64,000 nt of DNA. It comes from Raja brachyura. Taxonomy: Eukaryota. Shown here one piece after another: positions 43,801-46,800 of the stretch; position 1 is the first letter of the stretch, and each line of letters begins with the position of its first letter. Position numbers: made by a program. The DNA lies in NCBI GenBank assembly GCA_963514005.1, contig OY740817.1, positions 8,680,001-8,744,000 of the forward strand, in the 5' to 3' direction.

Positions 43801-46800
43801 TGAAAGCTATTTCAAAGTTATTACATTACCTTTGTGTTTTCTTAAACAGCAGGTAACTTTTAAAAGGTGGCCCATGTATGTATTATGGATATTTCATGTC
43901 ATACCATCGCACCTGGTTATCTTTGCAACCAAATAAATAATTGAAAGTTTTAAGATGCGGTTATGATTGCTACAAGATAACATGTTCTTGTAGAGAATGT
44001 GTTGAATATGTTCTTTTGACAGGAAAGTTAGAGCTGTTGGAAATAGTAGTCACCTTTCCGACTGACACTCCTAGAACAAGAATTGCCACAAGTTAGCTCC
44101 ATCCGCTTCACACAAGTAGTGCAATGTTTGTCTTGTTTGATTTGGATTTTCTACCTTTATGGGAGCTATTGTTTTCAGACGGATCACATCTGATGCCAAC
44201 ACCTCAACAATGATTCTTTCATGACAAGTCCATTTTGTGAGTAAAGGAGAGCCTAGAAATAATCAGGTGTTCTATTTTTCTAATAATATGCAAATTTGTT
44301 TCCCAAACAAATTTATATGGGAAACTGATTTATCCCGCTGCGCCACTTAGCTGCCTGTTGGTATCTTGACCAGACATTCTCAATGCATGGTACGACATCA
44401 ATTTATTTTCAAGTATACGTGGTCATGAAGATGGGGTTGAGGTAATCTAAATGCTCTAACTGTTTTAAGATCAATTAATTATTCTTTGTACAACATTTGT
44501 ACATTTCCCAAAGGTAAAAGCTAGTTCTCAAAACTGATTTTATTTGAAGGTAATCGTCTATGTTGTTGCTAAAAGTCATTTAATTCTGTTCCACGGCTTT
44601 TAACCTGTGCTTGAAACCTGGAATTGTTAAATTGTAAATGGTTTGATTTACAGAGGAGAATCTGGTGCCGGTAAGACAGAGAATACCAAGAAAGTGATTC
44701 AGTATTTGGCTCACGTTGCCTCTTCACACAAGTCTAAAAAGGAACAAGTAAGTGTCTTTTAACATATAGAGGTGAATGTTTAGTCATTTTTAATCTCGTC
44801 ATTGTAATAGTTTTATTAATCTATATGTAATTGATTTCAAAATATACAATACCAAACATTGTGATCAATCTGTTCCTGTAAAATTTTATCATTGAAATTA
44901 TGACTGATCAAATTATAGTTTAACATTTCATAACTGCCTGTTAAATCCCTTTAACAAAGTAAATTCTTGAAAGTTTCTTGCATATTTTTGCATGCAGTTG
45001 ATAACACTTTCCCCCTTCAACATTTGCAGCAGTCTACGGTGTTAGCATACGTGAGTGGGTTATTATAATTTGATTTGCATATTCTGCACTTTTTATGCAT
45101 TTATATACAGATCTGTTGGCTGTTTGGGGAAGTTGCTCAATTGGTTTAAGAAATTGCCTTTTGGGCAATAAAAACTCTTGATTTGAAACTTCCCCCTGAT
45201 TGAACAAACTCCTGGACTCGAAGATATGATACAGATGTAGTTTAGTGTTTGCTTAATAGTACTTTCCACTAAGCAAATGCGGTTGTCATATCTGTAAACA
45301 TTAATTGCAGCAAAATTGTGGCTTGAATTGATATGCAATAATTTGATCGCATCCAGACCAGAAAATACCATTTTTGATTTGCATACTTTAATTTCAAATA
45401 TTCGTCCTACTCAATATCAGGAACATGATTGTCCTGGCGGTCACCACAATGATAAGCACTTCAAATCTCAAAAATTCTGGTCATTTCTCTGGACTGTTGT
45501 CTACTTTGGATGGATTTGGAAACAAATTACAGCTCAGATCTGTATATTATTTATGTTGCATGCTTTGGGTGTAAAGGTGGTGTAAGTGTTTCTTAAAGGG
45601 TCTGTTAAAATTGGAGGTGTTTGCATAGAACAATGTTTAATAACTCAATTGGGATGTTTCCCATCCTGAAGGAACCTTGTGTCATTCATTCCGGGAAGTG
45701 ATTGGGAGCTCTGTGGTACAAAATTAAATGTTAATATTGAAGGTTTTTCCAAACCTCAAAATAACAAATATAGTGAAAAAGAGAGAAAATCAAAGTGTTC
45801 ATGTAGGAAATCACTCCCCCCCCCCCCCCCCCCCCCCCCCATCTAATGCGACTTTAATGTGGTTTTATTATCTGCTTAACAATAAGTTTATTGGGGAATA
45901 TTTTTGTCAAAAGTTGCTTCCCCTCCAGTATATTGTCTTAGTCTTTGCAACTGCTGTGAAGTTTGTTCCTCTGACCAGGAAAGAGATGTTTCACACTTTT
46001 TAAAGTAAAAATTATAATCATCACAAGCTTGTTATTAAATGGGCAGTTAAAAATCTATGAATTCAGTCCAACTGTTATAAAACTCAAACTGAATGTCAAA
46101 TTAATTTTGATTTTGACTAGCTACCTTTAGTTTCCCTTAATCAAACTTTTTATTTGCAGTTAGCCTCTAGTCAGTATTCCATTTAATCGACAACAATATG
46201 TAGCACAAAACCTACACCTGCATTTATAAGATTCTGTTATGTGCATCACTGGATTCCACCCCCCACTGACATGTCACAGGAAATATTTGTAATTCCTCTA
46301 ATAGGATTTTAGCTTTACTTTTAAAGTAAATTGTCCAGAATATATAATCTTGATTTGCCATTTACCAGGATAAGTCCATATAGTGAACACTAATCTTGAG
46401 GCACAGATGTGAAATGACTGTTCAGAATGCAACTTTGTGATGTTGTTAATTGTGCTGTAATAATTGTGTACGTAATTCTGTGTAAAATTAAAGTCTCACC
46501 ATTGCATTGTAGAGCTGCAATAGTGTACTAACCATCAATTGATAACGCACCAAAATGGATGGAATAAACCTGTTTGTGGAACAAATTACTTCATTTCGAA
46601 ATCCATGAAGTAAATGCAACACAACTTCAAATTGACAATAAGGCATTATTATTACAAAAAGTCAAATTTTCCATTGTCCAAATTTGGTTCATTCTAAAAT
46701 GGATTAAAATGATTTTATTGGATTGCTTTACAGCTCTACTAGATTGAACAGTTTCCATGTCTTGCTTCTTACCTGCCTAATGTAGCACTAATGCTAAAGA

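What the first reader, a model, noticed from the sequence alone, without database searches (positions are those of the whole stretch)
45030..45050. Hidden 7-amino-acid loop-1 microexon in MYH9 resembling the smooth-muscle SM-B insert
Seen: a 21-nt phase-0 exon with a pyrimidine tract, a tandem CAGCAG acceptor (7 or 6 residues) and a strong GTGAGT donor. It inserts QSTVLAY between SHKSKKEQ and GELEK. Established: MYH11 has a 21-nt loop-1 exon (QGPSFAY), and MYH10 and MYH14 have B1/C1 inserts at the same site; loop-1 inserts tune ADP release and velocity. Mammalian MYH9 is generally described without a major loop-1 isoform. Inference: same length with shared Q...AY ends suggests the insert predates the MYH9/MYH11 duplication and is retained in cartilaginous-fish MYH9.
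Basis: partly seen in the sequence, partly recalled or inferred. Interest (0 to 1): 0.75.

Follow-up and report, generated by a model that had tools for sequence, protein, structure and literature searches.

The report
Loop-1 microexon in fish MYH9
A real 21-base optional exon adds seven amino acids next to the ATP pocket of non-muscle myosin IIA in a shark or ray relative; public gene models of many fishes already include it, although the papers I could search never describe it.

Summary
At 45030-45050 (+) lies a 21-nt, phase-0, stop-free unit. It has a pyrimidine tract, a CAGCAG acceptor and a GTGAGT donor, and it sits between the P-loop exon (44654-47) and the GELEKQLL exon (48166-258) of an elasmobranch MYH9 orthologue.

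It is not "hidden". NCBI "myosin-9 isoform X1" models of five elasmobranchs carry the identical QSTVLAY at this junction. Two bichirs carry QSSVLSY. In four species the X1/X2 pair differs by these seven residues only.

A related 7-residue insert (x-S-[SA]-[VI]-L-[SA]-[HY]) occurs in 117 of 287 named models examined, including gar, bowfin and both teleost myh9 paralogues. The mammal, bird and squamate models lack it. A 2023 paper found no loop-1 splicing of mouse NMHC IIA.

The exon is therefore an "A1" counterpart of the SM-B, B1 and C1 inserts. It is ancestral to jawed-vertebrate MYH9 and is not seen in amniotes. Common descent with the MYH11 SM-B exon is plausible: same site, same length, shared Q…(A)Y. 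It is not proven.

A kinetic effect (faster ADP release) is inferred by analogy only. No searched paper describes the exon.

The parts
24380..24712 (+). First coding exon of the MYH9 orthologue (ATG at 24380, 111 codons, donor gtaagc)
   Evidence: It is 92% identical to Rhinoraja myosin-9 and 93% to Pristis.
28586..28742 (+). Coding exon 2 (157 nt, TYSGLFCVV...SMLQ plus 1 nt), acceptor ttaag, donor gtgagg
   Evidence: 52/52 residues are identical to Rhinoraja P0005.
43310..43337 (+). Coding exon 3 (28 nt, (D)REDQSILC(T)), acceptor tttcag, donor gtgagt
44654..44747 (+). Coding exon 4, the P-loop exon: [31 protein letters not shown]. It ends on a codon boundary; donor gtaagt.
   Evidence: Best solved-structure match is Myosin-9 residues 174-204.
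45003..45029 (+). Pyrimidine-rich tract and first acceptor (…ctttcccccttcaacatttgCAG)
   Evidence: 16 of the 20 bases before the AG are pyrimidines.
45027..45032 (+). Tandem acceptor CAGCAG (NAGNAG). The upstream AG gives the 7-residue form and the downstream AG would give a 6-residue form.
   Evidence: All 117 insert-bearing named models have 7 residues and none has 6.
45030..45050 (+). The 'A1' loop-1 cassette microexon: 21 nt, phase 0, encoding QSTVLAY
   Evidence: It is 7/7 identical to the extra residues of myosin-9 isoform X1 in five elasmobranchs.
45051..45056 (+). Donor GTGAGT of the microexon
48166..48258 (+). Coding exon 5: [31 protein letters not shown], acceptor ttattacag, donor gtgagt
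48525..57823 (+). Nine further motor-domain exons, up to about residue 621. Coding stretches run from 48525, 50733, 52153, 52745, 54493, 55793, 56999, 57270 and 57715. The last ends ...LWRD plus G at 57823, donor gtacgt.
   Evidence: Apart from the end at 57823, the exact splice boundaries of these exons were taken from protein alignment and were not inspected base by base.

Best explanation
The 21 nt at 45030-45050 are a genuine, evolutionarily old cassette microexon of the MYH9 (non-muscle myosin IIA heavy chain) orthologue of an elasmobranch. When spliced in, it adds QSTVLAY to loop 1, the surface loop at the mouth of the nucleotide pocket between the P-loop helix and the GELEKQLL helix. 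When skipped, the protein has the short loop that all amniote MYH9 proteins have. It is the MYH9 counterpart ('A1') of the loop-1 cassettes of the three sister genes: MYH11 SM-B (7 residues), MYH10 B1 (10 or 16) and MYH14 C1 (8). Shown here: the exon anatomy, the orthology, identity of the peptide with annotated isoforms of related species, isoform pairs that differ by this exon only, and its spread across cartilaginous and ray-finned fishes. Inferred by analogy with SM-B and C1: the longer, more flexible loop speeds ADP release. That would raise actin-activated ATPase and sliding velocity and lower the time spent strongly bound, so a fish could tune NM IIA between a slower tension-holding form and a faster form by splicing. 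Also inferred: an exon of 21 nt needs intronic enhancers or tissue-specific factors to be included.
For: Anatomy. Gene identity: the P-loop exon matches Myosin-9 best (47.8 bits, against 46 for Myosin-10 and 42.6 for Myosin-11). Exon 57270-57443 is 100% identical to NCBI 'myosin-9 isoform X1/X2 [Rhinoraja longicauda]'. Summed over 13 exons compared one by one, 578 of 599 residues are identical to Rhinoraja, 575 to Pristis, 567-569 to three sharks, 548 to Callorhinchus, 535-545 to bichirs and amniotes, and 402 to a myosin-10-like protein. Rhinoraja P0005 scores 3393 bits against solved Myosin-9, 3156 against Myosin-10 and 3119 against Myosin-11. Same exon in relatives: of 14 named proteins inspected, 7 carry an insert exactly between ...KEQ/KDQ and GELE. 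Five have QSTVLAY (Rhinoraja, Hypanus, Pristis, Hemiscyllium, Scyliorhinus) and two have QSSVLSY (Erpetoichthys, Polypterus). Alternative use: in 4 of 4 X1/X2 pairs tested (Rhinoraja, Pristis, Erpetoichthys, Polypterus) the proteins are identical except for the 7 residues at position 205. Spread: 117 of 287 named models carry a 7-residue insert of the form x-S-[SA]-[VI]-L-[SA]-[HY], with L5 in 117/117 and S2 in 108/117. These include Lepisosteus and Amia (QTAVLSH), Danio rerio X1 (SSSVLSH) and the myosin-9a group (GSAVLSH). Danio P0138 and Acanthochromis myosin-9a P0193 both match solved Myosin-9 best, by about 250-290 bits. Same site as SM-B: a 75-residue stretch of P0005 aligns QSTVLAY column for column with QGPSFSY of gizzard Myosin-11, directly before GELEKQLL. 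Function of such inserts, from paper passages: a longer loop 1 raises the ADP release rate and SM-B is the phasic, faster isoform (PMC13102872); C1 raises motility and ATPase (PMC10480317).
Against: No RNA evidence from the source species could be seen. Its own protein models were not among the hits; the best match on exon 1 was 93%. The isoform models of relatives are automated predictions, and I could not inspect the transcript support behind them. The Callorhinchus UniProt model P0256 has a different 7-residue segment (VILESPL) at the site. The kinetic effect is not a safe extrapolation: B1a gives only a small increase (PMC10480317), and human SMA and SMB were reported to be kinetically indistinguishable (PMC3938199, abstract start and passages). 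The search that revealed the teleost inserts used an insert-bearing query, so it favoured insert-bearing models. It says nothing about how often teleosts skip the exon.
Confidence: 0.82

Rival explanations
1. The exon is real but constitutive in this species (always included), so there is no isoform switch.
For: Nothing in the window shows skipping. Every teleost model listed carries the insert.
Against: Rhinoraja, Pristis and both bichirs have models with and without the exon that are otherwise identical. Heterodontus X2 also lacks it. A 21-nt exon with TAC before the donor is typical of regulated microexons rather than constitutive exons (general knowledge, recalled).
Confidence: 0.08
2. It is a chance pseudo-exon: an open 21-mer with splice-like flanks that is never used.
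For: Short open frames with AG and GT flanks do occur by chance. Seven other candidates of 9-51 nt were found in 128 kb.
Against: It is 7/7 identical to the annotated insert of five elasmobranchs and 5/7 to the bichir insert, at the exact junction. It is the only candidate in this intron and the only 21-nt candidate in the window.
Confidence: 0.02
3. The A1 exon and the MYH11 SM-B exon arose independently in the same intron (convergence) rather than from one ancestral exon.
For: Only Q1 and Y7 are shared with chicken QGPSFSY, plus A6 with human QGPSFAY (PMC13102872). B1 and C1 have other lengths: 10 or 16, and 8 residues (PMC10480317). Most ray-finned fish MYH9 inserts end in H, not Y (110 of 117).
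Against: All four paralogues have a cassette in the same intron and phase. A1 and SM-B have equal length. One teleost protein that matches Myosin-11 best (P0121 Boreogadus: 1688 bits, against 1571 for Myosin-9) has a loop-1 segment ending ...GSLAY, which is closer to QSTVLAY.
Confidence: 0.4
4. The insert does not tune motor kinetics. It acts otherwise (for example as a phosphorylation or binding site through its S, T and Y residues) or is nearly neutral.
For: Human SMA and SMB show no detectable effect of the insert (PMC3938199). B1a has only a small effect (PMC10480317). Position 2 of the insert is S in 108 of 117 models.
Against: The length is strictly conserved (117 of 117 are 7 residues) and L5 is invariant across cartilaginous and ray-finned fishes, which argues against neutrality. 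Chicken SM-B and C1 do change kinetics.
Confidence: 0.3

Closest known systems
Annotated 'myosin-9 isoform X1' of other elasmobranchs (NCBI models of Rhinoraja longicauda, Hypanus sabinus, Pristis pectinata, Hemiscyllium ocellatum, Scyliorhinus canicula)
   Same: Orthologous gene. The inserted peptide QSTVLAY is identical and sits at the identical junction. A partner isoform lacks exactly these 7 residues in Rhinoraja and Pristis.
   Different: The window comes from another elasmobranch: 21-32 differences in 599 residues, and SHKSKKEQ instead of SHKSRKEQ before the insert. Its own models were not among the hits.
MYH11 SM-B insert (7 residues; QGPSFAY in human, QGPSFSY in chicken gizzard)
   Same: Same intron (between the P-loop exon and the GELEKQLL exon), same 21-nt length and phase, and it aligns column for column. 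Q1 and Y7 are shared, and A6 is shared with human.
   Different: It is a different paralogue, and MYH11 has three more constitutive residues before the insert. The middle of the peptide is unrelated (GPSF against STVL). The SM-B function is tied to phasic smooth muscle.
MYH10 B1 (10 or 16 residues) and MYH14 C1 (8 residues) loop-1 inserts
   Same: Alternative cassettes at the homologous loop-1 position of non-muscle myosin II. C1 raises ATPase and motility (PMC10480317 passages).
   Different: They have other lengths, and their sequences were not compared here. B1 is neuron-specific. The tissue pattern of A1 is unknown.
NM IIA2 (loop-2 insert of mammalian MYH9, 21 residues; PMC10480317)
   Same: It is the only published splice isoform of NMHC IIA found in my searches. 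A homologous coding stretch lies in this window at 59706-59769.
   Different: It is in loop 2, not loop 1. It inactivates the motor rather than speeding it up. The same paper looked for loop-1 splicing in mouse and found none.

Membership tests
MYH9 (non-muscle myosin IIA heavy chain) orthologue | Closer to MYH9 than to MYH10, MYH11 or MYH14 over the motor domain | tested here: met
   Myosin-9 is the best solved-structure match of the P-loop exon; 100% identity of one exon to Rhinoraja myosin-9; 578/599 identical to Rhinoraja myosin-9 against 402/599 to a myosin-10-like protein. Rhinoraja P0005 scores 3393 bits against Myosin-9, 3156 against Myosin-10 and 3119 against Myosin-11.
Loop-1 alternative cassette exons of class II non-muscle/smooth-muscle myosins (SM-B, B1, C1) | Lies in the intron between the P-loop exon and the exon that begins GELE(K/R)QLL | tested here: met
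Loop-1 alternative cassette exons of class II non-muscle/smooth-muscle myosins (SM-B, B1, C1) | Length a multiple of three, phase 0, no stop, canonical AG and GT | tested here: met
   21 nt, CAG acceptor, GTGAGT donor.
Loop-1 alternative cassette exons of class II non-muscle/smooth-muscle myosins (SM-B, B1, C1) | Both inclusion and skipping occur | tested here: inconclusive
   Isoform pairs of 4 related species differ by the exon only. These are automated models, and no transcript data of the source species could be examined.
Loop-1 alternative cassette exons of class II non-muscle/smooth-muscle myosins (SM-B, B1, C1) | Inclusion changes nucleotide kinetics (ADP release) and velocity | not testable with these tools
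   Known for chicken SM-B and for C1 from paper passages. Not seen for human SMA/SMB.
Direct descendant of the same ancestral exon as MYH11 SM-B | Sequence similarity of the insert beyond what position and length alone give | tested here: inconclusive
   3/7 identical to human QGPSFAY and 2/7 to chicken QGPSFSY. One teleost MYH11-like model ends ...SLAY. No elasmobranch MYH11 and no outgroup gene could be examined.

The most novel reading that the evidence does not exclude
A loop-1 cassette with the Q…[AS]Y signature was already present in the single ancestral non-muscle/smooth-muscle myosin II gene before the vertebrate genome duplications. All four paralogues inherited it. MYH9 kept it as 'A1' in cartilaginous and ray-finned fishes and lost it on the way to amniotes. 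If so, the textbook picture of NM IIA as the one paralogue without loop-1 splicing describes a secondary loss, and fishes run two kinetic forms of NM IIA.
Probability: 0.45. Interest if true: 0.55.

Novelty: new member of a known kind. Interest (0 to 1): 0.4.

Why it matters
Loop-1 splicing is a classic way in which myosin II motors are tuned, as in SM-A/SM-B, B1 and C1. NM IIA is described as the exception, and a 2023 study searched for a loop-1 isoform in mouse and found none. The fish exon shows that MYH9 did have such a cassette, and still has it in most jawed fishes. That gives a natural with/without-insert pair for asking what loop-1 length does in the NM IIA background. Zebrafish myh9a and myh9b models carry the insert, which makes it genetically testable. 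The value is tempered because automated annotation already contains the exon in more than a hundred fish models. What is new is the recognition and naming, not the sequence.

Tried and rejected
1. A stop-to-stop ORF list of half the window (887 ORFs) was uninformative. Exons were found instead by reading plus-strand frames and by tblastn with a public skate protein.

2. The 31-residue P-loop exon was too short for the large protein search, so a 58-residue exon was used instead.

3. An ungapped distance matrix and NJ tree placed the window next to the skate. Its large distances for Danio and Lepisosteus were an artefact of ungapped matching. Gapped per-exon identities replace it.

4. Cluster members behind the 90% clusters could not be listed. 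Further species and possible 6-residue (NAGNAG) isoforms therefore remain unseen. Among what was seen, 0 of 117 insert-bearing models have 6 residues.

5. The Rbfox-type motif TGCATG is not enriched in the window: 65 matches against 52.8 ± 8 expected. One copy lies 36 nt upstream of the microexon (44989-94) and four more lie in the downstream intron. This is a lead only.

6. Rfam found no RNA family anywhere in the window.

7. Literature searches were negative. No paper holds any of six fish insert peptides. None holds myh9 + zebrafish + loop 1 + isoform. None holds recalled B1/C1 peptide motifs. The zebrafish myh9a/myh9b paper has 0 occurrences of 'loop' or 'splic'.

8. A review sentence attributes loop-1 and loop-2 variants to 'MYH9 and MYH10' (PMC7566000). 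This conflicts with PMC10480317. I take it for a slip, but I record it.

10. No genome collection of eukaryotes was available, so introns could not be aligned across species.
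Full report
**Observation.**
The stretch is exactly as described.
- The P-loop exon (44654-44747) encodes [31 protein letters not shown]. It ends on a codon boundary with the donor gtaagt.
- After a 282-nt intron comes a pyrimidine-rich tract, with 16 of the 20 bases before the AG being pyrimidines.
- Next is a tandem CAGCAG acceptor, then the 21 nt CAG TCT ACG GTG TTA GCA TAC (45030-45050, QSTVLAY), then the donor GTGAGT.
- After 3115 nt more, the exon [31 protein letters not shown] (48166-48258) begins on a codon boundary.

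A mechanical scan asked for a cassette-like unit: AG, at least 12/20 pyrimidines, an open frame of 9-51 nt, then GTRAGT.
- In this intron it found only this site, in its 21-nt and 18-nt forms.
- On either strand of the whole window it found only one 21-nt unit, this one.
- It found nine units of any length in 128 kb.

The 21-mer is unique in the window. There are no N in the window and no Rfam family on either strand. Minus-strand frames over the site are short and unremarkable.

**The gene.**
I searched window exons one at a time. I did not build or search a joined model of exon 4, the microexon and exon 5.
- The P-loop exon matches solved Myosin-9 best, though narrowly.
- Exon 57270-57443 is 100% identical to NCBI 'myosin-9 isoform X1' and 'X2' of the skate Rhinoraja longicauda.
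- tblastn with that public protein mapped 14 coding exons, from the ATG at 24380 to residue ~621 at 57823.
- Thirteen of these exons were compared separately and the counts summed. Identical residues out of 599 were:

| Compared with | Identical of 599 |
|---|---|
| Rhinoraja | 578 |
| Pristis | 575 |
| Hypanus | 569 |
| three sharks | 567-569 |
| Callorhinchus | 548 |
| bichirs and amniotes | 535-545 |
| gar and bowfin | 520 |
| two teleosts | 501-504 |
| a myosin-10-like protein | 402 |

The skate protein itself scores 3393 bits against solved Myosin-9, 3156 against Myosin-10 and 3119 against Myosin-11.

The window is therefore the MYH9 orthologue of an elasmobranch. Its own protein models were not among the hits: the best identity on exon 1 was 93%. 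It is not human sequence.

**The exon is already in public gene models.**
The two skate isoforms differ in length by seven residues. Of 14 named proteins inspected, seven carry an insert exactly between ...KEQ/KDQ and GELE.
- QSTVLAY occurs in Rhinoraja, Hypanus, Pristis, Hemiscyllium and Scyliorhinus.
- QSSVLSY occurs in the bichirs Erpetoichthys and Polypterus.

In all four X1/X2 pairs available (Rhinoraja, Pristis, Erpetoichthys, Polypterus) the two proteins are identical apart from these seven residues at position 205. The window's microexon is thus 7/7 identical to an annotated alternative exon of its nearest relatives, so 'hidden' is not the right word.

**Spread.**
A search with residues 187-230 of the public skate X1 protein listed 120 best hits, nearly all of them ray-finned fish myosin-9 models with a 7-residue insert at the site.
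- Lepisosteus and Amia have QTAVLSH.
- One teleost group has SHKTKKDQ + [NST]S[SA][VI]LSH. Danio rerio X1 has SSSVLSH.
- The group named myosin-9a has SFKSKKDQ + GSAVLSH.
- Danio X1 and an Acanthochromis myosin-9a both match solved Myosin-9 best, by about 250-290 bits.

The three searches stored 325 proteins. I dropped the 38 hits that carry no source name and counted the remaining 287:

| Loop-1 state | Named models (of 287) |
|---|---|
| 7-residue insert | 117 |
| no insert | 152 |
| other, unrelated odd segments | 11 |
| no readable loop-1 region | 7 |

- The insert pattern is x-S-[SA]-[VI]-L-[SA]-[HY]: L5 in 117/117, S2 in 108/117, final residue H in 110 and Y in 7.
- As far as I read the lists, the no-insert class comprises the mammal, bird and squamate models plus the X2 isoforms named above.
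- The odd segments include, for example, a 27-residue run in a bat model and VILESPL in a Callorhinchus UniProt model.

Two cautions apply. One search was biased towards insert-bearing proteins, so it does not show whether teleosts also skip the exon. Lungfish, coelacanth, amphibians and jawless fishes did not appear in the lists, and the members behind the 90% clusters could not be listed.

**Literature.**
- PMC10480317 (J Biol Chem 2023; passages read) says that loop-1 and loop-2 splicing was known for NMHC IIB and IIC but not for IIA. RT-PCR across the putative loop-1 site in mouse tissues detected nothing (Fig. S1, which I could not see). The authors state they cannot exclude very low or cell-specific 'NM IIA1' expression. 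The paper gives B1 as 10 or 16 residues with a small kinetic effect. It gives C1 as 8 residues with higher ATPase and motility.
- PMC13102872 (passages) gives the SM-B insert as QGPSFAY. Citing Sweeney et al. 1998, it states that a longer loop 1 raises the ADP release rate.
- PMC3938199 (abstract start and passages) reports that the human SMA and SMB constructs show no detectable effect of the insert.
- PMC7566000 (passages) has a sentence ascribing loop-1 and loop-2 variants to 'MYH9 and MYH10', which conflicts with the 2023 paper.
- No paper in the searched library holds any of six fish insert peptides, or myh9 + zebrafish + loop 1 + isoform.
- The recent zebrafish myh9a/myh9b/myh10 paper does not contain 'loop' or 'splic' (PMC11708221).

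Within that library the fish A1 insert is undescribed. About 1.7 million PMC articles and the subscription literature were not searched.

**Relation to SM-B.**
A 75-residue stretch of the skate X1 protein finds gizzard Myosin-11 chains as its best solved-structure matches (about 118 bits, against 108-111 for the insert-less Myosin-9). It aligns QSTVLAY column for column with QGPSFSY, directly before GELEKQLL. MYH11 has three extra constitutive residues before the insert.
- Identity is 2/7 with chicken and 3/7 with human.
- One teleost model that matches Myosin-11 best (P0121: 1688 bits against 1571 for Myosin-9) has a loop-1 segment ending ...GSLAY. This is nearer to QSTVLAY, but it is a single, oddly duplicated gene model.

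Same intron, same phase, same length and shared ends make one origin plausible. They do not exclude convergence. I had no elasmobranch MYH11 and no outgroup gene to test this.

**Mechanism.**
Shown:
- an in-frame cassette that lengthens loop 1 by seven residues;
- strict conservation of its length and of L5 across cartilaginous and ray-finned fishes, which argues for function.

Inferred from SM-B and C1: inclusion speeds ADP release and raises ATPase and velocity, giving a faster NM IIA with a lower duty ratio. Inferred from general knowledge of microexons (recalled): inclusion of a 21-nt exon depends on intronic enhancers. A TGCATG lies 36 nt upstream and four more lie in the downstream intron, but the motif is not enriched in the window. 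The tandem acceptor could give a 6-residue form; none of the 117 models shows it.

**Verdict.**
This is a real, conserved loop-1 cassette of MYH9, and it belongs to a well-known kind. It is already present in automated annotation of many fishes, but I found no description of it in print. It is ancestral at least to jawed-vertebrate MYH9 and is not seen in amniotes. Interest is moderate.

Noticed in passing
window 59706-59769 (+): A stretch in the intron after the exon ending at 57823 encodes EIKGFQLAYFYARFPILHFEP. It is 13/21 identical to the 21-residue loop-2 insert of bird myosin-9 X1 models (P0262, P0241). It is also similar to the 23-25-residue inserts of piranha and goldfish X3 models, and to the mouse A2 insert quoted in PMC10480317 (brain-specific NM IIA2). 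The donor is G|gtgaca, but the two bases before the expected exon start (59705-06) are GG, not AG, and I found no in-frame AG upstream. So the window holds a homologue of the A2 loop-2 exon whose acceptor looks non-canonical or lost.
   Followed up: partly
window 29245-29388 (+): A degenerate second copy of the 3' part of coding exon 2 (…[21 protein letters not shown]) lies about 500 nt downstream of the real exon. It has an in-frame stop and 50% identity over 48 residues, so it looks like a decayed exon duplicate.
   Followed up: no
protein P0256 (Callorhinchus milii UniProt model), loop 1: This chimaera model has VILESPL where elasmobranchs have QSTVLAY: the same length at the same site, but unrelated letters. 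It is either a different exon call by the annotation pipeline or a real difference in holocephalans.
   Followed up: no
window 44989-44994, 45557, 47210, 47524, 47975 (+): Five plus-strand TGCATG motifs lie in the 3.4 kb between the P-loop exon and the GELEK exon, one of them 36 nt upstream of the microexon. The motif is not enriched in the window as a whole: 65 matches against 52.8 ± 8 expected. This is a possible splicing-factor site and a lead only.
   Followed up: partly
window 8700-9500 (+): A G+C-rich block (0.485 in 8001-10000, against about 0.40 elsewhere) lies about 15 kb upstream of the first coding exon. It may be the promoter or 5' UTR exon region of the gene.
   Followed up: no
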